Shown here: positions 1-18,567 of the stretch, piece after piece
Position numbering within the stretch: the first letter of the stretch is position 1
How the letters are laid out: the number at the start of each line of letters is the position of its first letter
From: a virus
Length of the DNA stretch: 18,567 nucleotides
Reading direction: 5' to 3' (one strand)
IMG/VR virus record: IMGVR_UViG_3300045988_161322
Location: 1-18,567 of that record
The notes under the pieces: model-generated
The model's database searches: none
The model's input: only the letters and a program-made list of their open reading frames with translations
What the model was told of the DNA's origin: nothing
Translations under genes and position numbers: made by a program

Positions 1-223
1 AATCTAATTTGTTCTTCTCAGTTCCAAATACTTCCCCCAATAGTAATCAAAACTACGTCAAATAACATACACAAATCATGTAACATTTTCATTATATTTT
101 CACATAGTATTGATAACTACATGCATCAATATTTTGTCGAATATTTCTTATAATTATTTTCAATTATTTGTTTAAAAACCCTTGCATTTTCTGTTCAAAT
201 GTTATATAATTAAATCATGGAAA
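1..223. repeat. Left inverted terminal repeat (ITR), 223 bp; genome end and protein-primed replication origin
   Basis: Bases 1-223 are the exact reverse complement of 18345-18567, compared by eye in 10-nt blocks. The first mismatch is 224 versus 18344. The genome also encodes a protein-primed family-B polymerase and a terminal-protein candidate. Confidence 0.97.
182..210 (+). promoter_or_regulatory. Sigma-A-type early promoter inside the left ITR, reading inward
   Basis: TTGCAT (182-187), a 17-nt spacer, then TATAAT (205-210). An A/T-rich block at about 145-178 lies upstream. The predicted start is near 217. Confidence 0.6.
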
Positions 224-293
224 AGGAGTTGAATAATATGAATAAAGAATAGTAGATTTTATAAAAGGATTAAGTATTAAAGATTTATTGTAT

Positions 294-2188: not shown

Positions 2189-3232
2189 ATGGCATTGGAC
2201 AATGTAACGTTTGTAAGTATGGTTAGTGATTTAGCAAGTCAAGAATATAAAGATAGAGTTCCTACTGCAACTCAAGACAATATAGGGAATATTGAAGAAA
2301 TTATTTATACTTATCCAAGTACAAAGAATGAATTTATTAGTGTGTTAACAAATCAAGTTGCAAAACAATTATTTTTTAGTAAGGCATACGAAAATCCTTA
2401 CAAATTATTTAATAGGGGTATGTTACCATACGGTAAATCAATTGAAAGCATTTTTGTTGATATTATCAAAGGTAAACAAAGGACACACGAAACAGATACA
2501 TCTAATTTAGCTAGCGATTTATTAGCAAGAGAAACTCCTAATGTAAAGGTCGAGTATTATTCAGAAAATTTCCGTCATCAATACAAAACAACTATTACTG
2601 ATGAGGAATTAAAAGGTGCATTTAGGGCAGAAAATGGTTTAAGCTCTATGACAGGTAGAATATTACAAGCTCCATTGACTTCTATCGAGTATGACATGCA
2701 AGAAATGGTATTACATGCATTACCAGAATTAAAAGGTGGAAAAGCTACTATTAATAAGGTAGCATATGGTACAATGACAGAAGAAGAAAAGGCAAAAGTA
2801 TTAGTTAAGACTATAAAATCACAAGTTATCAAAATGGGATTTTTAAATAACAAACATAATGGACAGGGTGTAATGACTTTCTCAAGACCTCAAGATTTAG
2901 TTGTTTTCTTAGACCCGGATATGATGGCAAATATTGATGTTGAATTATTAGCACAAGCATTCAATATAGATAAGGCAGAAGTTCCACTTCATGTATTACC
3001 AGTTCCACAATTCACTAAGAGAACAGGAGAGGGTGAAGAAGCAACATATGCAGAAGATACTGATTGTTTAGCAATTATTTGTGATAAAGATGCAATACAA
3101 ATATATGAAACATTAAACAGTTCAGAAACATTTAGAAACCCTCAAGGAATTTATACAAATGTATTCTTCAATAGATGGGGATTAATGTCAGCTTGTAATT
3201 TTGCAAATGTTTGTAGAATAGTAACTGAATAA
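2189..3232 (+). CDS. Major capsid protein (phi29 gp8 family)
   Basis: Matches to phi29 gp8 as I recall it: PYGKSIESIFVDIIKGK with PLGRTIEEIYTDITKEK; ETPNVKV with EMPNVKT; FRNPQGIYTN...CNFANV with VRNPRGLYWN...SRFANA. Confidence 0.93.
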   Translation: MALDNVTFVSMVSDLASQEYKDRVPTATQDNIGNIEEIIYTYPSTKNEFISVLTNQVAKQLFFSKAYENPYKLFNRGMLPYGKSIESIFVDIIKGKQRTHETDTSNLASDLLARETPNVKVEYYSENFRHQYKTTITDEELKGAFRAENGLSSMTGRILQAPLTSIEYDMQEMVLHALPELKGGKATINKVAYGTMTEEEKAKVLVKTIKSQVIKMGFLNNKHNGQGVMTFSRPQDLVVFLDPDMMANIDVELLAQAFNIDKAEVPLHVLPVPQFTKRTGEGEEATYAEDTDCLAIICDKDAIQIYETLNSSETFRNPQGIYTNVFFNRWGLMSACNFANVCRIVTE

Positions 3233-3235
3233 AAT

Positions 3236-3262
3236 AAGGAGGTATACAAGCCTCCTTTTTTG
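3236..3262 (+). terminator. Rho-independent terminator or attenuator after the capsid gene
   Basis: Stem AAGGAGG (3236-3242) pairs with CCTCCTT (3251-3257), with an 8-nt loop and T6 at 3256-3261. Confidence 0.75.
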
Positions 3263-3294
3263 TCGTATATGAAAAAGGAAAGGAAGTGAATTTC

Positions 3295-4848
3295 ATGGCA
3301 AGACAAAGTACAATTTATTTGTTTAACTGTTGGTTTTTAGATGTTGGACACAATCATACAGTTAATTTTAATAATGTAACAAATCAATTAAATTTCTTTA
3401 TGAATTATTTGCAATTTAAAATTGATAACTGCACATATTTAAGAAAAGAACGTACATTAAAAGTTCCAAAATATATTGACGAACTTGCATTATGTAATTA
3501 TTGTGCATTTCAAAATTCTGTTGATGGTAAAATGGAATACTTTTTTATTTTAAATAAAACTTATCTTTCTGAAAATGTAACGGAACTTACTTTAAAGTTA
3601 GATGTAATTCAAACATATTGGTTTGAAATGAATTTTACAAAAATAAAATCTCACATAGATAGGCAACATTTATGGAGATGGAATGCAGATGGAACAGTGG
3701 CAGATTATAATATGTTAGAAAATGAAGATTTTGAAATAGGTGAATATATTTTACAAAACAGAACTCCACTTTATGATTATGAAAACAAAGGTGGTTATAT
3801 TGTTACTAGTTCAGATAAACTTTCAATAAAATATAGTGGTGGAAGTAGTGATAGTTCAACAAATCAAGGTAATTTATATAAAGATAAATTAGTATCAGCT
3901 AATGGTTTTTGGTTTATTAAACAAGGCGAGGGGTTTAGCGCAACTCCATACAATTTAGGTGATGGAACTTACACTATTGGCTACGGTACTACGAGTAAAT
4001 ATGATTCTGAACATTATAATCAACTTGCTCCAGAATGTACAGAGGAACAAGCAAGTAATGTGTTGGCAGAAAGTTTAAAGAACAATTATTCATCATATGT
4101 GTATGATACCTTTGTCAAATATGGTTTTGATATGAATAAAATGAAGCAACAACATTTTGATGCGTTCGTTTCTTTTTATTATAATACTGGTAGTTTATCA
4201 AACAAGTCAATTTTTACTAAATACATTAATGGCGATAGTCCTGAAAGTATTGCAGAAGTATGGAAAGAAACGGTAATAATGCCGGGTACTCAATTCGAAG
4301 AGGGATTAAGGAATAGAAGAAAAGCAGAAGCTAATGTATTTTTAAATGGTGATTATAATTATAAGCCAATACCTAACCTAAATGGTGGAACAATTACAGA
4401 CAATGACGGAAAAGGTTACATTCCTGATATGTTTAATAAGTATGATACTCCAACAAGTGAAATAAGGCAAAATATTATAAATAGCGCAAAGAAACTGATT
4501 GGATTACCTTACGTATATGGTGGGAATTATCCTCCATTAGGTAATAGTAGTGGAACAGATTGTTCTGGCTTATGTCAATGGGCATATCATGATAATGGAA
4601 TAAATATATCAAGAACAACATATACACAAATTAAAGAGGGTAAAGAAATAACGTTAGAAGAATGTAAACCAGGTGATTTGGTCTTTACTAGGGGTAACTC
4701 CGACAATGGTCATGTTGTTATGTTTTATAGGCATAATGATGATGGTAGCATTCATGTTATTGAAGCAAAACAAACAGGTACAGATATAATGGAAAATGAC
4801 AGAACTCCAAATAGTGATTATCGTTATAGAAATTTATTAGGAGATTAG
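3295..4848 (+). CDS. Tail-knob N-terminal fragment fused to a GH24-like lysozyme and an NlpC/P60 endopeptidase (virion-associated peptidoglycan hydrolase)
   Basis: Numbering is from the track start at 3286. Residues about 1-180 resemble the phi29 gp9 N-terminus: LKLDVIQTYWFEMNF...IDRQHLWRWNADGT with FEIDVLQTWMFDIKF...VREHVKLWNDDGT. Residues about 203-352 carry IKQGEGFSATPYNLGDGTYTIGYGTT, a phage-lysozyme signature. Residues about 392-505 carry GLPYVYGG...GTDCSGL...GDLVF...GHVVMF, the NlpC/P60 Cys-His motifs. ATG 3295 sits 8 nt after AGGAAG and is preferred over GTG 3286. Confidence 0.9.
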   Translation: MARQSTIYLFNCWFLDVGHNHTVNFNNVTNQLNFFMNYLQFKIDNCTYLRKERTLKVPKYIDELALCNYCAFQNSVDGKMEYFFILNKTYLSENVTELTLKLDVIQTYWFEMNFTKIKSHIDRQHLWRWNADGTVADYNMLENEDFEIGEYILQNRTPLYDYENKGGYIVTSSDKLSIKYSGGSSDSSTNQGNLYKDKLVSANGFWFIKQGEGFSATPYNLGDGTYTIGYGTTSKYDSEHYNQLAPECTEEQASNVLAESLKNNYSSYVYDTFVKYGFDMNKMKQQHFDAFVSFYYNTGSLSNKSIFTKYINGDSPESIAEVWKETVIMPGTQFEEGLRNRRKAEANVFLNGDYNYKPIPNLNGGTITDNDGKGYIPDMFNKYDTPTSEIRQNIINSAKKLIGLPYVYGGNYPPLGNSSGTDCSGLCQWAYHDNGINISRTTYTQIKEGKEITLEECKPGDLVFTRGNSDNGHVVMFYRHNDDGSIHVIEAKQTGTDIMENDRTPNSDYRYRNLLGD

Positions 4849-4860
4849 GAGGGATTTATA

Positions 4861-6114
4861 ATGGCAACAACTTCAAAAAATGAGCCAGATAGCACAATAA
4901 TTAATAATGTTGCAGTTGGGTTATATTATTACTATGTTCCTAAAAATGGAGCAAGTGAAGCAACTTATCTTGGATTTGTAAATACTATTGAAAGTGTAAC
5001 ATATAATCCTTTCATTGATGAAGCTGATATATCAGACGTTCGTAAAGCAATATTTGATACTGCAAGGTATGGAAGCCCCGACGGTCAAATACCTTATGTA
5101 AAAAGAATTTGTTCGTTTGATAAAATTAATTATCAACTTGGTGGAACTCAAAAAATTTACCCTAAAAAATCTGACTATAGTTATGATTTTGAGCCTAGGG
5201 TTTTATGTTATCCTTTTAGATATTTTTTAATTACTGATTATTCTTCAAATCCAATGTTAATCAAGCCCGAAAGAATAGAGGATAATGGCACAAACGAATT
5301 CAAGGTAAAAGTAAAAACTACTGCAATAAGTTCAGAAAGTAAGTATAATATTTATGTTGAAAATTATAAATATGATGGCGATGGTAACTTAGAGGGAATG
5401 TGTAATAGTACAGCATTAATGTTACCTGTTACATCTTCTGCATATAGTCAATTTTTAGCTACTTCTGCTAGTTCATTTAATCAATCAGTTACTAATGCTT
5501 TATTAGAAAATGATTTAACATTAAAACATAATACTCAATCAAATAATTTGAATTTTGCACAAAGTACAACTAATAATGCATTAAGTGCAATAGGTAATTT
5601 ATTGAGCCTAAATTTTGGAGGATTAGCAGGTAACGCAAGTAATTTAGCTTTTGGTTACATGCAAAATCAATTAGCTAATAATCAAGCAAATGAAAATTCA
5701 CAATTAAATGAGCATAACATTATTAGTATGAAAAACGCAAAAGTTAACGATATGCTAACAACTCCGAATAGTATTAAGACTGCAGGAAATGACACATTAT
5801 TTAATTTAATTAATAGCAATCAAAGAGTTGATTTATTAGAATATAGATGTAATGTTCAACAAATGTCAAAGGCTCAAGAATATTTTAAACGATATGGTTA
5901 TAAAGTTAATGGTTATGATTTTATAAATTTAACATGTAGAAAACATTATAATTATGTAAAAACTAATGTTTGTAATATTGTAGGAGCAAGAATACCTCAT
6001 GAATATTTAGACGAAATAAAATCAATTTTTAATAATGGTATTACAGTTTGGCATATGGACAATGACGGAACAACAATGTTCAATTATGATAACAATGTGG
6101 AGGTGTATGTATAA
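4861..6114 (+). CDS. Tail-knob protein, central and C-terminal part (phi29 gp9 residues about 200-599)
   Basis: Matches to phi29 gp9 as I recall it: VGLYYYYVPKNG with PLCYYIHPFYKDG; CYPFRYFLITDY with MYPYCVTEITDF; YFKRYGYKVNG...YNYVKTNVC...EIKSIFNNGITVWHMDN with FFHKYGYKINR...FNYVQTKDC...EIRTIFDNGITLWHTDN. It has its own SD GGAGGG and ATG, 12 nt after the preceding TAG. Confidence 0.9.
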   Translation: MATTSKNEPDSTIINNVAVGLYYYYVPKNGASEATYLGFVNTIESVTYNPFIDEADISDVRKAIFDTARYGSPDGQIPYVKRICSFDKINYQLGGTQKIYPKKSDYSYDFEPRVLCYPFRYFLITDYSSNPMLIKPERIEDNGTNEFKVKVKTTAISSESKYNIYVENYKYDGDGNLEGMCNSTALMLPVTSSAYSQFLATSASSFNQSVTNALLENDLTLKHNTQSNNLNFAQSTTNNALSAIGNLLSLNFGGLAGNASNLAFGYMQNQLANNQANENSQLNEHNIISMKNAKVNDMLTTPNSIKTAGNDTLFNLINSNQRVDLLEYRCNVQQMSKAQEYFKRYGYKVNGYDFINLTCRKHYNYVKTNVCNIVGARIPHEYLDEIKSIFNNGITVWHMDNDGTTMFNYDNNVEVYV

Positions 6115-7611: not shown

Positions 7612-7637
7612 GACTTGTTTACTCAAGTCCTTTTTTG
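7610..7637 (+). terminator. Rho-independent terminator or attenuator after the collar genes
   Basis: Stem AGGACTTG (7610-7617) pairs with CAAGTCCT (7624-7631), with a 6-nt loop and T6 at 7631-7636. Confidence 0.8.
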
Positions 7638-7667
7638 TCGTTAGTAATAAATAGGAGGTGCATGTGC

Positions 7668-8951
7668 ATGAGTATTGATAAAATAAGAAATATTGGACTT
7701 GATAAATTAGTTACACAAGTTTATGATTTTGACAGTTTGACAACTGATGAATTAATGTGCAAATTTGCCCAAAAAATAAATATCATTATTGAACATTTTA
7801 AATATTTAGATGATAGATGTTATAATAGTGATAAAAGTATGGAATTAAAATTGCAATATTTATTAGGACAAGGACTAGAGGAACAAGTTGCAAAAAGATT
7901 ATTAGAATTAATAAATAACGGAACATTGGAGCAGTTAATTAATCAAACTCTATTAAAGGATATTAATGATAAAGTTAATAATTTTAAAATTGAAGTTAAC
8001 GAAGAATTGGATAGTATTAAGAGTGAAAAAGTTGATAAAGAGTTGTTTAACTCACGAAGAGTTTTCAAACCTAAAATTTACGGTAATTTAAACTGGTCAG
8101 TATCAAAAAAAGTTGATGAAATATACCCATTTACTGATGAAACATTAAACAGTTGGATTGGATGTATTGACGGCATAATAATTGATTTTCAAATAAAGCC
8201 AAATGGGTCAATTATAAATGATGACACAACATATTTTTTAAATCCAACAACTGATTGGTTAAATTATGTAATAAAAAAATGCAATGATTTAAATATAAAA
8301 ATCAAAGGAGTAAAATTTCATGCTGATGAAATAAGGGACAATCTGAATAAATTAACATTTACTAATTGGTTTAATAAATATAAAGAATTAATAAGAAGTG
8401 TTACTAATGTATTAAAGTGTGATTATTTATTATATTTTAATGAAAGCTCTTCATTATTAAATAGAGAAATGACAGAAGTAAATATAATAAATAATTTTAC
8501 TAATGAATTAAAATCTTTAGGCTTTCAAGTAGGGTTTGCAGGAACTGGGGTAAAAAATTTAGATAAAGGATATATATTTGATATTATAAGTTTCCATCAA
8601 TACCCAGCAATAAGTGGAAAACTCAATAATACAACTTATAATGATAGTGTTATAGCATGGGAACAAAATAGAAATACCTATTTAGTAAATAAAGCTATAA
8701 AAGATTACCCAAATAAAAAAGTAATGTTAGGTGAAGCAGGTTGTCCCGATAGTTGGGAATGTTTAGCAGTTCCCGAAAAATGGAATTGGAATAGCAACGA
8801 TTTAACACCCGATATGAGTGGAAACCCTAGTGCTATCTTTTTATATGGAATGTTAGAAACATATAAAAATACAAATTTAGATTGTGCATGTTTTTGGTAT
8901 TGCGACCCTATGCTAGAAGAAACTAGAAAATTATTGAAAAAATATGTATAA
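7668..8951 (+). CDS. Putative tail appendage or receptor-binding protein with a clan GH-A-like glycosidase domain
   Basis: It occupies the phi29 gp12 position. The N-terminal LQYLLGQGLEEQVAKRLLELINNGTLEQLIN resembles anchor regions of Firmicute phage fibre proteins (from memory). The C-terminal half has FNESS and MLGEAGC, which look like the Asn-Glu acid/base and Glu nucleophile motifs of (beta/alpha)8 retaining glycosidases. ATG 7668 lies 9 nt after AGGAGG and is preferred over TTG 7635. Confidence 0.6.
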   Translation: MSIDKIRNIGLDKLVTQVYDFDSLTTDELMCKFAQKINIIIEHFKYLDDRCYNSDKSMELKLQYLLGQGLEEQVAKRLLELINNGTLEQLINQTLLKDINDKVNNFKIEVNEELDSIKSEKVDKELFNSRRVFKPKIYGNLNWSVSKKVDEIYPFTDETLNSWIGCIDGIIIDFQIKPNGSIINDDTTYFLNPTTDWLNYVIKKCNDLNIKIKGVKFHADEIRDNLNKLTFTNWFNKYKELIRSVTNVLKCDYLLYFNESSSLLNREMTEVNIINNFTNELKSLGFQVGFAGTGVKNLDKGYIFDIISFHQYPAISGKLNNTTYNDSVIAWEQNRNTYLVNKAIKDYPNKKVMLGEAGCPDSWECLAVPEKWNWNSNDLTPDMSGNPSAIFLYGMLETYKNTNLDCACFWYCDPMLEETRKLLKKYV

Positions 8952-8965
8952 AGGAGGTCGATTAT

Positions 8966-9760
8966 ATGAACGGAATAAATAGAGGGGGAGACGTAACTGT
9001 CGAAAGAGGTATAGGAAGCGATTATTGCGTTCCAGTTTTAAGAATACCAATAGAGCCAAAAGGAACTATTTTCAATTTTGATGAAGGGAAAATAATAGGA
9101 AGTATTGGATTCACTGTTTATAGATATACAATAAACGAATATGAAAAAGCAGAATATTTTGCTTATTTTGGCAGACAAACAAACGAAGATACAAGTAGTA
9201 TTTTATCGAAAATAAAAAAACTTAATGGAAGTAGTAATATTAGAGTTTATAGTAGAATTTTAGGTAATTATATTTATGTTTATGTAAGACCAATAAATCA
9301 GTATGATGTGTTAACTCTACAAGTTAATTTTGCAACTGCATTTAATTTTGTTGAGTTATTGCGATATGAAGATAAAGAGTTATATTCTGATTTAAGTTCA
9401 ACTTTAACGATAGCACAAACACAAAAAACTAACATTACTCCAAATGAGGAATTAGGTTGGAAGAATGATAGTTCATATACTGTAATAAATGATATTGATT
9501 ATTTAAATAGAGTATCATTAAATTTCACTTTATATTCAACTTCAACTGCAGATTTATCAGAGGGTGTTAATATTGCTACAATTTCAAATCCACCATTAAA
9601 AAATACTCCAGTTTGTGCTTGTTATCAAGACTTAACAACAAATACAATTGGTGTTTGTCAATTGTTATTTAGGGCAAACGGTACTGTAGGTTTGAGAGGA
9701 TGTTCAACCTTATCAAACAAGGAAATTCGTGTATTTGCTAGTGTAAATTATTTTATTTAA
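8966..9760 (+). CDS. Hypothetical 264-aa late (probably structural) protein
   Basis: SD AAGGAGG. It lies in the late operon between the appendage and lysis genes. No family recognised. Confidence 0.75.
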   Translation: MNGINRGGDVTVERGIGSDYCVPVLRIPIEPKGTIFNFDEGKIIGSIGFTVYRYTINEYEKAEYFAYFGRQTNEDTSSILSKIKKLNGSSNIRVYSRILGNYIYVYVRPINQYDVLTLQVNFATAFNFVELLRYEDKELYSDLSSTLTIAQTQKTNITPNEELGWKNDSSYTVINDIDYLNRVSLNFTLYSTSTADLSEGVNIATISNPPLKNTPVCACYQDLTTNTIGVCQLLFRANGTVGLRGCSTLSNKEIRVFASVNYFI

Positions 9761-10079: not shown

Positions 10080-10325
10080 ATGAGCGAAGTATCAACATTA
10101 ATTACAAATCTAGGTTTTCCAATTGTTTGCGTTCTAGGTTGTGCATATTTTATTTGGTATATGGTTAAGCAAGAACGTGAAGAAAATGCAAAAAGGGAAG
10201 AAAGGTATTTGACAACTATTGATAAATTCACAGATGTACTTGAAAAAGTAAACGAAAATTTGGCAACAAATAACAAAAGATTAGAATATATAGAAAAGAA
10301 ATTAAGCATAGGAAGTGATGAGTAA
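10080..10325 (+). CDS. Holin, BhlA/UviB family
   Basis: One N-terminal transmembrane helix (LITNLGFPIVCVLGCAYFIWYMV) is followed by a charged coiled-coil tail (KQEREENAKREERY...). This is the BhlA/UviB architecture. It sits immediately upstream of the endolysin. SD AGGAGG. Confidence 0.8.
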   Translation: MSEVSTLITNLGFPIVCVLGCAYFIWYMVKQEREENAKREERYLTTIDKFTDVLEKVNENLATNNKRLEYIEKKLSIGSDE

Positions 10326-10985
10326 TTGTATAACCAAATTAATATTAGTAGTGGTCATAGCATAAATTGTCAAGGTGCAAGTGATATAATAAACGAAGTT
10401 ACTGAAGCAAGAAAAATAGTTGATAGAATTTACGACATGTGTAAAGCTATTGGTATAGAAGTGTACAAGTATCATGATACATCAAGTTCAAGTTCACAAA
10501 ACTTAGCAAATATTGCAAACTGGCATAATCAATTTAAAGATGGTATAGATATATCAATTCATTTTAATGCTTATCACCATACATCAAACAGTATGGGTAC
10601 AGAAGTTTGTTATTATTCCCAATCACAATTAGCTAATCAAGTGTCATCTGCAATTAGTAAAGCAAGTGGACTAAAAGATAGAGGGGGAAAAGAAAGAAAA
10701 GGGCTTTATGTTTTAAAACACACAAATAAACCAATGCTATTAATTGAAGTTTGTTTCTGTGATAGTTCTTTTGATGTACAAAAATATCGTGAAAACTTTG
10801 ATGGCATATGTTCTGCAATAATACAAGCTTTAACTGGTAAAACTTTTCAAGTAAATAATACAAATAATAGTTCAAATAATGATAAGATTTATCGTGTACA
10901 AGTTGGAGCATATAAAGTTAAATCAAATGCAGAAGAAATGCAACAAAAATTAAAGAAATTAGGTATTGATAGTATAATTGTATAA
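10326..10985 (+). CDS. Endolysin: N-acetylmuramoyl-L-alanine amidase (Amidase_3, CD27L-like) with a C-terminal SPOR-like repeat
   Basis: SSGHSINCQGAS..INE and ISIHFNA....GTEVCYYS....LKDRG.KERKGLYVLKHTNKPMLLIEVCFCD parallel the CD27L/PlyPSA-type amidase as I recall it. After an Asn/Ser linker, YRVQVGAYKVKSNAEEMQQKLKKLG matches the SPOR signature. The only usable start is TTG 10326, which abuts the holin stop. GGAAGTG lies 8 nt upstream. Confidence 0.88.
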   Translation: MYNQINISSGHSINCQGASDIINEVTEARKIVDRIYDMCKAIGIEVYKYHDTSSSSSQNLANIANWHNQFKDGIDISIHFNAYHHTSNSMGTEVCYYSQSQLANQVSSAISKASGLKDRGGKERKGLYVLKHTNKPMLLIEVCFCDSSFDVQKYRENFDGICSAIIQALTGKTFQVNNTNNSSNNDKIYRVQVGAYKVKSNAEEMQQKLKKLGIDSIIV

Positions 10986-12071: not shown

Positions 12072-12635
12072 TTAAATTATTTCTCTTATTTCTTTCTCAT
12101 GTTCTCTTAATCTTTTTCTAATCCTTGATAAAATTGTTTTTGTACCATTATATTTTGTATTATATTTTTTACATATTTCTTCTATAGTATAACCTTGACA
12201 ATACATTTTAAAATATTCTTTATGCCTTTCATTTTTGATAAATTCGCAAACCTTATCAATTGTTTCGTTTATATCTTCGTATTCATCTTCAGATTGAATA
12301 ACATTGTGTAAACTCAAATCCTTATTACTTTCATTTTTAACCACTTCTTTATCTAAAAACACTCTATTGTCATAAACTTTTCTTTTTTCTCTTCTTTCAA
12401 TTTTTAAAACATCATAAACTCCATTTTTTACTACTTTTGCAATGAATGTATTTAACCCTGCAATATCTTCATTATATTTATTTATAGCAAAAGCAACTTT
12501 TATTTCACATATTTGTAACACATCTTCAAATTCTACCCTATCATGGTAATTTACTAATATAGTATTATAAAATCTGTATGTCATACCTTTTATATATCTA
12601 TCTCCATATTGATTTATATAATCTTCATATTTCAT
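12072..12635 (-). CDS. Sigma-70-family (ECF or group-5-like) sigma factor, candidate late-gene regulator
   Basis: 187 aa. A region-2-like segment, EDVLQICEIKVAFAINKY...LNTFIAKVVKNGVYDVLKIERREKRK, and a region-4 HTH-like segment, KEYFKMYCQGYTIEEICKKYN...GTKTILSRIRKRLRE, are separated by an acidic linker. SD GGGGGTAAGGA. Confidence 0.7.
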   Translation of the reverse strand: MKYEDYINQYGDRYIKGMTYRFYNTILVNYHDRVEFEDVLQICEIKVAFAINKYNEDIAGLNTFIAKVVKNGVYDVLKIERREKRKVYDNRVFLDKEVVKNESNKDLSLHNVIQSEDEYEDINETIDKVCEFIKNERHKEYFKMYCQGYTIEEICKKYNTKYNGTKTILSRIRKRLREHEKEIREII

Positions 12636-18249: not shown

Positions 18250-18344
18250 TTTAAATCACCTCTTATTTGTAATATACAATCATTGGAATACATACCCTTA
18301 GCCACTACAAGGTTATGATATTTAGTAGTGCTTATTTATTTCCC

Positions 18345-18567
18345 TTTCCATGATTTAATTATATAACATTTGAACAGAAAATGCAAGGGTTTTTAAACAA
18401 ATAATTGAAAATAATTATAAGAAATATTCGACAAAATATTGATGCATGTAGTTATCAATACTATGTGAAAATATAATGAAAATGTTACATGATTTGTGTA
18501 TGTTATTTGACGTAGTTTTGATTACTATTGGGGGAAGTATTTGGAACTGAGAAGAACAAATTAGATT
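18345..18567. repeat. Right inverted terminal repeat (ITR), 223 bp
   Basis: Exact reverse complement of 1-223. Confidence 0.97.
18358..18386 (-). promoter_or_regulatory. Sigma-A-type early promoter inside the right ITR, reading inward
   Basis: Mirror image of 182-210: -35 TTGCAT at 18386-18381 and -10 TATAAT at 18363-18358 on the - strand. The predicted start is near 18351. Confidence 0.6.

What the first reader, a model, noticed from the sequence alone, without database searches (positions are those of the whole stretch)
3286..6114. Tail-knob gene (phi29 gp9 homologue) split into two ORFs, with a lysozyme plus NlpC/P60 cassette fused to the N-terminal fragment
In phi29 the tail knob (gp9, 599 aa) is one polypeptide, and the tail peptidoglycan hydrolase (gp13, lysozyme plus M23 peptidase) is a separate protein at the knob tip. 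Here residues about 1-180 of the first ORF match the gp9 N-terminal domain (DVIQTYWFEMNF, RQHLWRWNADGT, then GEYILQNRTPLYDY, corresponding to SEYDIVSVENHKPYDD). The chain then runs through a Ser/Gly linker into a GH24-like lysozyme (about 3892-4341) and an NlpC/P60 endopeptidase (about 4459-4845), and ends at TAG 4846-4848. Twelve nt later a new SD and ATG open a 417-aa ORF. That ORF resumes gp9 homology almost exactly where the first left off: LYYYYVPKNG, CYPFRYFLITDY, a Gly/Ala/Asn/Leu-rich segment at about 5566-5760 matching the position of the phi29 membrane-pore loop, and the C-terminal YFKRYGYKVNG...NNGITVWHMDN. No separate gp13-like gene exists. The knob would therefore be assembled from two chains, and 6 copies (if hexameric as in phi29) of a dual-activity cell-wall hydrolase would be anchored covalently to the knob through the gp9 N-domain. 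This looks like a gene fission caused by cassette insertion. The enzyme part has probably been annotated in related phages as a lysozyme-endopeptidase, but I am not aware of the split-knob interpretation.
Basis: partly seen in the sequence, partly recalled or inferred. Interest (0 to 1): 0.8.

Follow-up and report, generated by a model that had tools for sequence, protein, structure and literature searches.

The report
Two-gene phage tail knob carrying lysins
In this small phi29-like phage the tail-tip "knob" protein is encoded as two adjacent genes. The first half carries two cell-wall-cutting enzymes, an arrangement already recorded in Clostridium perfringens phages and seen here with a different peptidase.

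Summary
ORF1 (3286/3295-4848) has a phi29 gp9 N-terminal region, then a GH24 lysozyme and an NlpC/P60 peptidase. ORF2 (4861-6114) is the rest of gp9. Against one full-length knob profile (PHROG 2248, 590 positions) ORF1 covers 17-212 and ORF2 covers 194-581.

The split is real. Stop, ribosome-binding site and restart recur in every related locus whose downstream gene could be read. They recur at 28-91% identity, with different stop codons, spacers and frames.

It is not new in kind. Volozhantsev et al. 2012 described a 529-aa "tail domain + lysozyme + M23" virion protein and a shortened 399-aa gp9 homologue in C. perfringens podophages. A 2024 review described two-gene knobs in Gram-negative phi29-like phages. 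The differences here are the NlpC/P60 module and the explicit two-halves reading.

A survey added three things:
- The gp9 N-region anchors shuffled hydrolase cassettes: GH24, GH73, NlpC/P60 and M23.
- Two single-ORF forms exist with a lysozyme inserted between N and C.
- Enzyme-bearing forms cluster together.

Assembly geometry, six-copy stoichiometry and enzyme activity remain inferred. Interest is moderate.

The parts
3236..3257 (+). Terminator-like hairpin followed by a T-run. It lies between the major capsid gene (stop at 3232) and ORF1.
   Evidence: No such site lies between ORF1 and ORF2, so the two are probably co-transcribed. This is a consensus match only.
3295..4848 (+). ORF1: the N-part of the tail knob fused to a two-enzyme cell-wall hydrolase. 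It is 517 aa from ATG 3295, or 520 aa from the mechanical start at GTG 3286. Residue numbers in this report use the 520-aa numbering unless stated.
3301..3633 (+). gp9-type N-terminal beta-sandwich domain (residues 6-116), with the tail-tube-like fold.
   Evidence: - Pfam Caud_tail_N, 28.9 bits.
- AF2 model confident over residues 6-114.
- Foldseek: phi29 gp9 5fb4_B at E 3.4e-7.
- BFVD 'major tail proteins' superpose at rmsd 1.6-2.6 A over 110-122 columns.
3634..3828 (+). gp9-like extended segment (residues 117-181). It aligns to gp9 123-183, the stretch that follows the N domain.
   Evidence: - hhalign.
- As conserved as the N domain: 0.60 mean column conservation, with invariant residues listed.
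- pLDDT below 50 in the monomer model. This fits a segment that folds only within the assembly, which is an inference.
3829..3885 (+). Ser/Gly-rich spacer (residues 182-200), at the junction where gp9 homology stops.
   Evidence: Sequence KYSGGSSDSSTNQGNLYKD. It is the least conserved segment (0.49) and has low pLDDT.
3886..4353 (+). GH24 (T4/lambda-type) lysozyme domain, residues 201-356.
   Evidence: - Pfam PF00959, 63.9 bits.
- PDB endolysin and lysozyme matches.
- pLDDT about 90.
- E215 and T230 invariant in 32 sequences.
4453..4845 (+). NlpC/P60 cysteine endopeptidase domain, residues 390-520.
   Evidence: - Pfam PF00877, 68.3 bits.
- PDB 4hpe, 4fdy and 9ubf at E 1e-12 to 1e-13.
- C426, H476 and E493 invariant.
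4846..4860 (+). Junction between the two genes: TAG stop (4846-4848), Shine-Dalgarno AGGAGGG (4847-4853) overlapping the stop, and the spacer up to ATG 4861.
   Evidence: A stop, ribosome-binding site and ATG are found at this junction in the window and all six relatives whose junction sequence was inspected, with spacers of 1-13 nt.
4861..6114 (+). ORF2: the C-part of the tail knob (417 aa), corresponding to gp9 from about residue 197 to the end.
   Evidence: - Pfam phi29_gp9_C, 86.3 bits.
- phmmer to PDB 5fb4, E 7.9e-20.
- hhalign probability 99.65%.
- PHROG 2248 positions 194-581 and PHROG 16740.
5467..5760 (+). Predicted long helical hairpin with a Gly-rich turn (residues 203-300). It sits at the position of the phi29 L-loop / Andhra channel loop.
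   Evidence: - AF2 helices 203-248 and 253-300, at pLDDT of only 50-67.
- Aligned to the gp9 stretch that contains the Gly/Ala/Ser-rich L-loop region.
- The loop's role is taken from PMC6542822 and PMC9710869.
5761..6111 (+). C-terminal domain of the knob (residues 301-417), the best-conserved part relative to phi29 gp9.
   Evidence: YFKRYGYKVNG, GITVWHMDN. In Andhra gp12 the chain returns here to complete the beta-sheet of the N domain (PMC9710869).

Best explanation
The tail knob is encoded by two adjacent, co-transcribed genes.

ORF1 supplies the gp9-type N-terminal beta-sandwich and the extended segment that follows it. At the point where gp9 would continue, ORF1 leaves the knob through a Ser/Gly spacer. 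It then carries a GH24 muramidase and an NlpC/P60 endopeptidase.

ORF2 supplies the rest of gp9. This comprises the distal beta-sheet body, the helical channel loop that in phi29 blocks the tube and then inserts into the membrane, and the C-terminal domain.

By analogy with solved one-chain knobs, the ORF2 C-terminal domain would return to complete the sheet of the ORF1 N domain. The two chains would then be locked together without a covalent link. A hexameric knob would hold six covalently anchored copies of the hydrolase pair. These would open the peptidoglycan during infection, doing the job of the separate gp13 of phi29. A separate Amidase_3+SPOR endolysin with a holin-like gene handles lysis from within.

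Shown here:
- homology and complementarity of the two ORFs to gp9;
- conservation of the split;
- intact catalytic residues;
- absence of another tail lysin gene.

Published for relatives at about 30% identity: both proteins are present in virions.

Inferred: the strand-complementation geometry, six copies, where the enzymes sit on the knob, and their activity.
For: Complementary halves of gp9:
- Pfam and hhalign mapping to gp9.
- Single-profile complementarity on PHROG 2248: ORF1 17-212 and ORF2 194-581, against gp9 2-586.
- The best PDB structural match of the ORF1 model is gp9.
- About 181 gp9-like residues in ORF1 plus 417 in ORF2 give 598, close to the 599 aa of gp9.

Conserved two-gene layout:
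- Seen in six metagenomic relatives (49-91% identity for the five from the ORF1 search) and in phiCPV4 (28-32%), in the order MCP, N-enzyme, gp9_C, connector.
- The best 120 listed homologues at 47-91% identity are mostly 504-528 aa. They carry the lysozyme and NlpC/P60 domains, and most also have a recorded Caud_tail_N hit.

Likely active enzymes: catalytic E215/T230 and C426/H476/E493 are invariant.

Folds only in the assembly: segment 117-181 is conserved but not foldable as a monomer. ORF2 is also poorly modelled as a monomer (pLDDT 48.5), as expected for an intertwined hexamer.

Virion presence in a relative: mass spectrometry of phiCP7R virions found the 59-kDa lysozyme-peptidase (4 peptides) and the 46-kDa tail protein (2 peptides) (PMC3362512).

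Precedents for the geometry:
- Chain topology of one-chain knobs (PMC9710869).
- AlphaFold3 12-mers of two-gene knobs in Gram-negative phi29-like phages show beta-sheets shared between the two proteins (PMC11476376).

Permissive junction: single-ORF N+LYS+C proteins show that a folded domain is tolerated at exactly this junction.
Against: - No multimer model or experimental structure of the two-chain knob was obtained.
- The ORF2 monomer model is unreliable, and its Foldseek match to gp9 is weak (E 1.6e-3).
- The Caud_tail_N score of ORF1 is only just above the Pfam cut-off (28.9 against 27). In phiCPV4 it is below the cut-off (22.7).
- ORF2 residues 13-107 map to gp9 only through PHROG 2248. 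hhalign did not align them.
- Copy number and the location of the enzymes on the knob are unknown. In Andhra the tail-tip lysin is present in only two copies.
- The virion evidence comes from a relative with about 30% identity and an M23 peptidase, not NlpC/P60.
Confidence: 0.8

Rival explanations
1. ORF2 alone forms a shortened knob. ORF1 is a separate tail-tip lysin whose gp9-like N domain is a docking module, forming an extra ring or plug on the knob. On this reading ORF1 is a functional analogue of gp13 or Andhra gp10, not an integral half of the knob.
For: - The 2012 authors read the protein as a gp13 analogue.
- In other picoviruses the tail lysins are separate proteins that insert into the knob.
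- Proteins with a gp9 N domain plus enzymes occur in many forms, as expected for a modular adaptor.
Against: - ORF2 lacks any N domain: it starts at PHROG 2248 position 194.
- The window has only one gp9 N domain.
- ORF1 homology extends beyond the beta-sandwich through gp9 123-183 and stops where ORF2 begins.
- In one-chain knobs the N domain is the part contacted by the lower collar, and its sheet is completed by the C-terminal domain. A knob without it would lack its attachment ring.
- Single-ORF N+LYS+C forms exist.
Confidence: 0.12
2. The stop at 4846-4848 is an artefact or is bypassed. The real product would be one 942-aa chain made by a sequencing error, TAG read-through or recoding. 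ORF1 and ORF2 are in the same frame, separated by TAG and four codons.
For: Same frame in the window and in L005. Single-ORF N+LYS+C proteins exist in other phages.
Against: - The stop, ribosome-binding site and ATG are found in the window and all six inspected relatives, with TAG or TAA and spacers of 1-13 nt.
- The frames match in only 2 of these 7 junctions, about the chance rate.
- The 91%-identical relative L004 has TAA and a 13-nt spacer, which puts it out of frame.
- TAG ends 7 of 26 genes in the window, including the DNA polymerase gene. No tRNA gene is present.
- In phiCP7R, separate proteins of 59 and 46 kDa (predicted sizes) were identified from an SDS-PAGE separation by MS.
Confidence: 0.02
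3. ORF1 is a soluble lysis enzyme (an endolysin) that happens to carry a tail-like N-terminal domain. It would not be a virion component.
For: PHROG hits of the enzyme domains include many 'endolysin' families. UniProt names the 67%-identical protein simply 'Lysozyme'.
Against: - The gene sits inside the structural block, between the capsid and knob/connector genes.
- A separate Amidase_3+SPOR endolysin lies next to a holin-like gene at 10080-10985.
- The homologue is found in purified phiCP7R virions.
- The N-region is under the same constraint as the knob domains.
Confidence: 0.04

Closest known systems
'Lysozyme-peptidase' plus 'tail protein' gene pair of Clostridium perfringens podophages (Guelinviridae: phiCPV4_0020/0019, phiCP7R, phiZP2, CpV1, phi24R; PHROG 16615 and 16740)
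   Same: - Same gene order: capsid, N-enzyme, short gp9 homologue, then (directly or after a small gene) connector.
- Same N-terminal tail domain followed by a GH24 lysozyme.
- Same shortened tail protein of about 400 aa.
- Same PHROG families.
- Both proteins were found in virions by mass spectrometry (PMC3362512).
   Different: - Only 28-32% identity.
- The C-terminal peptidase there is M23; here it is NlpC/P60.
- The published description likens the protein to gp13 and notes that the tail protein is 'much smaller'. It does not say that the two are complementary halves of gp9.
phi29 gp9 tail knob protein (PDB 5FB4/5FB5; Pfam PF16838 + PF20934; PHROG 2248)
   Same: The N domain, the following segment, the body, the Gly-rich helical loop and the C-terminal domain are all recognisable. 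Together they cover the whole profile.
   Different: gp9 is one 599-aa chain with no enzyme. Here there are two chains, with about 340 aa of hydrolase appended at the break.
Two-gene tail knobs of phi29-like phages of Gram-negative hosts (Phanie gp9/gp10, Astrid, DU_PP_III; PMC11476376)
   Same: The knob is encoded as an N-part protein plus a C-part protein. Extra domains sit at the break. The predicted 6+6 assemblies have beta-sheets shared between the two proteins.
   Different: - There the extra domains are Ig-like, non-enzymatic, and sit at the N-terminus of the C-part protein.
- Here they are peptidoglycan hydrolases at the C-terminus of the N-part protein.
- The host group differs.
- The review does not mention the clostridial case.
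phi29 gp13 tail lysin (Phage_lysozyme2 + M23)
   Same: A glycosidase plus a peptidase associated with the knob, for cell-wall penetration. The role is presumed to be the same.
   Different: gp13 is a separate gene with different enzyme families (PF18013 and M23). It has no gp9 domain and binds the knob non-covalently.
Andhra gp10 / P68 gp11 tail tip lysin
   Same: A two-enzyme (glycosidase + cysteine peptidase) virion lysin at the knob of a picovirus.
   Different: It is a separate protein, with two copies in Andhra, that inserts a linker domain into the knob. Its domains are GyH + CHAP, and it has no knob homology.
UniProt A0A8S5PZ70, 'Lysozyme [Podoviridae sp. ctack17]' (metagenomic)
   Same: 67% identity across a full-length 519-column alignment; the target is 516 aa. 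It probably shares the N + GH24 + NlpC/P60 architecture, although its domains were not scanned here.
   Different: It is named only 'Lysozyme' and has not been studied.

Membership tests
phi29 gp9-type tail knob protein | N-terminal tube-like beta-sandwich (Pfam PF16838 Caud_tail_N) | tested here: met
   - ORF1 residues 22-116 score 28.9 bits against a cut-off of 27.
- hhalign probability 99.0% to gp9 21-183.
- Foldseek 5fb4_B at E 3.4e-7.
- BFVD major tail proteins superpose at rmsd 1.6-2.6 A.
phi29 gp9-type tail knob protein | C-terminal body (Pfam PF20934 phi29_gp9_C) | tested here: met
   - ORF2 scores 86.3 bits.
- phmmer to 5fb4, E 7.9e-20.
- hhalign probability 99.65%.
phi29 gp9-type tail knob protein | N and C parts lie in one polypeptide | tested here: not met
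   Two ORFs are separated by a stop, a ribosome-binding site and an ATG. This is found in the window and all six inspected relatives.
phi29 gp9-type tail knob protein | Long internal helical, hydrophobic loop that plugs the tube and forms the membrane pore | tested here: inconclusive
   ORF2 residues 203-300 are predicted as two long helices with a Gly-rich turn at the aligned position. The model confidence is low and membrane activity cannot be tested.
phi29 gp9-type tail knob protein | Hexameric tube attached to the lower collar | not testable with these tools
   No multimer prediction was available. Lower collar and connector genes are present.
Guelinviridae-type knob-anchored lysozyme-peptidase (PHROG 16615) | gp9 N domain + GH24 lysozyme in one protein, encoded directly upstream of a gp9 C-part gene of about 400 aa | tested here: met
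   - PHROG 16615 at E 2e-59 over residues 6-423.
- Synteny with phiCPV4.
- tblastn 32% identity over residues 12-427.
Guelinviridae-type knob-anchored lysozyme-peptidase (PHROG 16615) | C-terminal M23 metallopeptidase | tested here: not met
   The window has NlpC/P60 (PF00877, 68.3 bits) and no M23. phiCPV4 has M23 at 107 bits. The tblastn matches to these phages stop at residue 427-447.
Guelinviridae-type knob-anchored lysozyme-peptidase (PHROG 16615) | Component of the virion | not testable with these tools
   Shown by mass spectrometry only for phiCP7R (PMC3362512).
GH24 phage lysozyme (PF00959) | Profile match above the cut-off, with the catalytic Glu present | tested here: met
   63.9 bits against 22.3. 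E215 is invariant and D226 is present in 28 of 32 sequences.
NlpC/P60 cysteine peptidase (PF00877) | Profile match above the cut-off, with the Cys-His catalytic pair and a third polar residue | tested here: met
   68.3 bits against 23. C426, H476 and E493 are invariant in 32 sequences.
phi29 gp13 tail lysin | Separate protein with Phage_lysozyme2 (PF18013) + M23 | tested here: not met
   gp13 has PF18013 and a sub-threshold M23 match, 18 bits against a cut-off of 28.7. No window ORF matches either family. The resemblance is one of function only.
Two-gene knob of Gram-negative phi29-like phages | Ig-like domains on the C-part protein; N-part protein without enzymes | tested here: not met
   ORF2 begins directly with knob homology at residue 13. 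The extra domains are enzymes on ORF1.

The most novel reading that the evidence does not exclude
The boundary near gp9 residues 185-200 may be a general plug-in site of phi29-like knobs. In a large, mostly uncultured clade of Firmicute phages, the N-region serves as a universal covalent anchor for freely shuffled peptidoglycan hydrolase cassettes. These include GH24, GH73, NlpC/P60 and M23, in any order. Both one-chain (inserted) and two-chain (split) states exist. Gram-negative phi29-like phages use the same boundary for Ig-like domains. If so, cell-wall specificity in these phages is set by swapping a cassette at one structural joint. Six anchored enzyme pairs would replace the few-copy tip lysins of phi29 and Andhra.
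Probability: 0.6. Interest if true: 0.55.

Novelty: new variant of a known kind. Interest (0 to 1): 0.4.

Why it matters
The finding gives a structural reading of two gene annotations, 'lysozyme-peptidase' and 'tail protein', that are still copied unchanged into C. perfringens phage genomes (for example PMC13236511, 2026).

It predicts that the knob of these phages is a 6+6 hetero-oligomer with built-in wall-degrading enzymes.

It identifies a natural joint at which enzymatic cassettes are exchanged. That is useful for engineering the host range or lytic activity of small therapeutic podophages, and for mining virion-associated lysins against clostridia.

It does not reveal a new principle. 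Tail proteins with fused lysins, and split knobs, are both documented.

Tried and rejected
- Sequencing artefact or read-through. Rejected from seven junctions, the window and six relatives, from stop-codon usage, and from the absence of tRNA genes.
- Near-identical known phage. None was found by megablast of the region or of the whole window against 50,697 phage records.
- phmmer of ORF1 against PDB. It found only the enzyme domains, not gp9, at E up to 1. Profile and fold methods were needed.
- Monomer AF2 of ORF2. The model was poor (pLDDT 48.5) and its Foldseek result is only weakly informative. I could not use it to place the break in three dimensions.
- Papers on the gp9 crystal structure (Nature 2016) and on C1 gp12 (PNAS 2012). 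Neither is held, so gp9 domain boundaries could not be taken from them.
- Multimer prediction. 
- Literature searches for an explicit split-knob statement about clostridial phages. They found none. One search failed on a syntax rule.
- Rfam. It gave no match, so no pRNA was recognised.
- The neighbour-joining tree of N domains. It has no support values and is used only as a hint.


Full report
**What the window is.** The 18,567-bp window looks like a complete linear genome of a phi29-like podophage.
- It has 236-nt inverted terminal repeats at 1-236 and 18332-18567 (98% complementary).
- The rightward structural block encodes a phi29-type capsid protein, a connector, a lower collar, an appendage-like protein, a holin-like protein, an Amidase_3+SPOR endolysin and a packaging ATPase.
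- The leftward block contains a protein-primed family B DNA polymerase gene.
- G+C content is about 27%.
- No phage record is similar at the DNA level.
- The closest isolates are Clostridium perfringens podophages of the Guelinviridae, at about 30% amino-acid identity in the polymerase, ORF1 and ORF2.

**Checking the observation.**
- ORF1 runs 3286-4848 and ends in TAG.
- A 12-nt spacer contains AGGAGGG.
- ORF2 runs 4861-6114 and encodes 417 aa.
- Pfam places Caud_tail_N at ORF1 residues 22-116 (28.9 bits, cut-off 27), Phage_lysozyme at 212-348 and NLPC_P60 at 406-495.
- Pfam places phi29_gp9_C, profile positions 150-444 of 449, on ORF2.
- The true start of ORF1 is probably ATG 3295, because MARQSTIYLFNC matches the family consensus MRxSxxYLCNC.

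**Are the two ORFs complementary halves of gp9?** Yes.
- In phi29 gp9, Caud_tail_N covers residues 7-122 and gp9_C covers 151-597.
- A 32-sequence profile of the ORF1 family aligns residues 20-181 to gp9 21-183 (probability 99.0%, E 6e-18).
- A 27-sequence profile of the ORF2 family aligns residues 108-410 to gp9 321-594 (probability 99.65%).
- The cleanest test is a single full-length profile, PHROG 2248 (590 positions). phi29 gp9 covers positions 2-586. ORF1, in 517-aa numbering, covers 17-212, and ORF2 covers 194-581. A relative with 49% identity gives 5-201 and 195-583.
- The AF2 model of ORF1 has confident N, lysozyme and NlpC/P60 domains (mean pLDDT 78). Its best PDB match is phi29 gp9 (5fb4_B, E 3.4e-7, 142 columns).
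- In BFVD, many 'major tail proteins' superpose on the N domain at rmsd 1.6-2.6 A.
- About 181 gp9-like residues in ORF1 plus 417 in ORF2 give 598, close to the 599 of gp9.

**Is the split real?** Yes.
- The ORF1 family has 273 database clusters. The best 120, at 47-91% identity, are mostly 504-528 aa. They carry the lysozyme and NlpC/P60 domains, most also have a recorded Caud_tail_N hit, and many sit on 17-20 kb contigs.
- In L003-L007, L010 and phiCPV4, the next gene is a gp9_C-only protein of about 400-430 aa. The connector gene follows, directly or after a small gene.
- At the junction there is always a stop, a ribosome-binding site and an ATG.
- The stop is TAG or TAA, the spacer is 1-13 nt, and the two genes share a frame in only 2 of the 7 junctions inspected.
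- The window's same-frame arrangement is therefore chance, and read-through is not a conserved feature.
- TAG is an ordinary stop codon in the window (7 of 26 genes), and there is no tRNA gene.

**The enzyme cassette.**
- The catalytic Glu of the GH24 domain (E215) and T230 are invariant in the 32-sequence alignment.
- The NlpC/P60 residues C426, H476 and E493 are also invariant. Both enzymes are therefore probably active.
- No other structural gene of the window matches a lysozyme or peptidase family.
- The only other wall hydrolase is the Amidase_3+SPOR endolysin, which lies next to a holin-like gene.
- ORF1 residues 117-181, the part aligned to gp9 123-183, are as conserved as the N-domain beta-sandwich. 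Yet they have pLDDT below 50 in the monomer model.
- ORF2 as a monomer is also poorly modelled. Both results fit chains that fold only within an intertwined assembly. This is an inference.

**The wider family.** A phmmer search with ORF1 residues 1-185 against 1.84 billion representative proteins found 2,510 hits at E up to 0.001. I classified the best 150 with HMMs I built myself and with Pfam.
- 70 are ordinary one-chain knobs (N+C).
- About 45 have the N-region, nearly always ending between residues 165 and 190, followed by hydrolases in many combinations and orders. These are GH24 alone, GH24+NlpC/P60, NlpC/P60+GH24, NlpC/P60 alone, GH24+M23, M23 alone, GH73, GH73+NlpC/P60, NlpC/P60+GH73 and M23+GH73.
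- Two are single ORFs with a lysozyme inserted between N and C: P0273 (812 aa, L008) and P0369 (850 aa, L009). Both have no internal stop, and in L009 the connector gene follows.
- Two are N+C knobs with a C-terminal M23.
- In a crude neighbour-joining tree of the N domains, the enzyme-bearing forms cluster together. That cluster includes the window and phiCPV4, the N+LYS+C forms are nested inside it, and the cassette types are intermixed.
- This fits a single main origin of the insertion followed by frequent cassette exchange. The tree has no support values, and the direction of change (fission or secondary fusion) is open.

**How it probably works.**
- In solved knobs the chain starts with the N-terminal beta-sandwich at the head-proximal end. 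The lower collar binds there (PMC6542822).
- The chain then descends through an extended connector to a beta-sheet domain at the distal end and forms the internal helical channel loop. It returns to the top to complete the sheet of the N domain (PMC9710869).
- The break here falls after the extended segment and before the distal body.
- I therefore expect the ORF2 C-terminal domain to complement the ORF1 N domain. This would give a 6+6 knob in which six lysozyme-peptidase pairs hang from the joint on a spacer of about 19 residues.
- AlphaFold3 models of the two-gene knobs of Gram-negative phi29-like phages show shared sheets of this kind (PMC11476376).
- I could not establish whether the enzymes sit at the side or at the tip.

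**What is already known.**
- Volozhantsev et al. 2012 (PMC3362512) reported a 399-aa gp9 homologue in phiCP7R, phiCPV4 and phiZP2. They called it 'much smaller' than the 599-aa phi29 protein.
- They also reported a 529-aa structural protein with a phage tail domain (PHA00380, residues 1-150), a lysozyme domain and an M23 domain.
- Both proteins were detected in purified virions. The authors compared the second one with gp13.
- The GenBank note of phiCPV4_0020 says the same.
- Evseev et al. 2024 (PMC11476376) described a tail knob encoded by two genes, but only for phages of Gram-negative hosts and with Ig-like inserts.
- Later clostridial phage papers keep the labels 'lysozyme-peptidase' and 'tail protein'.
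- I found no statement that the clostridial pair are complementary halves of one knob protein.
- The NlpC/P60 version exists in UniProt only as an unstudied metagenomic 'Lysozyme' (A0A8S5PZ70, 67% identity).
- No isolated phage in the collection matches ORF1 across the NlpC/P60 domain in the same protein.

**Verdict.** The arrangement is a variant (NlpC/P60 in place of M23) of one already documented at the domain and proteome level, so the surprise for a specialist is moderate. The added value has three parts:
- the explicit two-halves mapping;
- the finding that the same joint hosts shuffled hydrolase cassettes in a large uncultured clade;
- the existence of unsplit insertion forms.

Assembly, stoichiometry, enzyme position and enzyme activity remain to be shown.

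Noticed in passing
window 1-236 and 18332-18567: 236-nt inverted terminal repeats, 98% complementary. This is far longer than the 6-nt repeats annotated in phi29 or the 28-nt repeat of phiCPV4. It indicates that the window is a complete linear genome with protein-primed replication.
   Followed up: partly
window 3286-6114: ORF1 and ORF2 are in the same reading frame, separated only by TAG and four codons. Read-through would give a 942-aa chain. Only 2 of the 7 junctions inspected share this, so it looks like chance.
   Followed up: yes
window 3286-3297: The mechanical ORF start is GTG 3286. ATG 3295, preceded by AAAGGAAAGGAAG, fits the N-termini of homologues better.
   Followed up: partly
window 3236-3257: Terminator-like hairpin with a T-run directly after the major capsid gene. 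It could lower transcription into the low-copy tail genes.
   Followed up: no
L008 546-2984 and L009 3001-5553: Two metagenomic phi29-like phages encode the knob as one ORF of 812 or 850 aa, with a GH24 lysozyme inserted between the N and C parts and no peptidase.
   Followed up: partly
proteins P0297 and P0381: One-chain knob proteins (N+C) that carry an M23 peptidase at the C-terminus. This is a third way of attaching a lysin to the knob.
   Followed up: no
window 7635-8951 and 8966-9760: A 438-aa protein has a pre-neck-appendage-like N-terminus (PHROG 17212) and a sub-threshold GH113-like match. It is followed by a 264-aa protein with no match in Pfam or PHROGs. They may form the receptor-binding apparatus.
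   Followed up: no
window 12072-12635 (- strand): A 187-aa protein with weak matches to ECF-type sigma factor regions 2 and 4. Only Sigma70_ECF is above its cut-off (22.2 against 21.1). It may be a phage-encoded sigma factor for late genes.
   Followed up: no
whole window: No Rfam family reached threshold, so no recognisable packaging RNA (pRNA) was found. No tRNA genes were found either.
   Followed up: no
L005 and L006 (relatives at 62-69% identity in ORF1): In these relatives the DNA polymerase gene lies upstream of the capsid gene on the same strand, together with a 229-aa protein with a weak 'Recombinase' match. In the window the polymerase gene is on the opposite strand at the other end. 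Genome organisation therefore differs within the clade.
   Followed up: no
window 10326-10985: The endolysin combines Amidase_3 with a C-terminal SPOR domain, which binds denuded glycan at septa. The C. perfringens relatives are reported to have SH3 domains instead.
   Followed up: no
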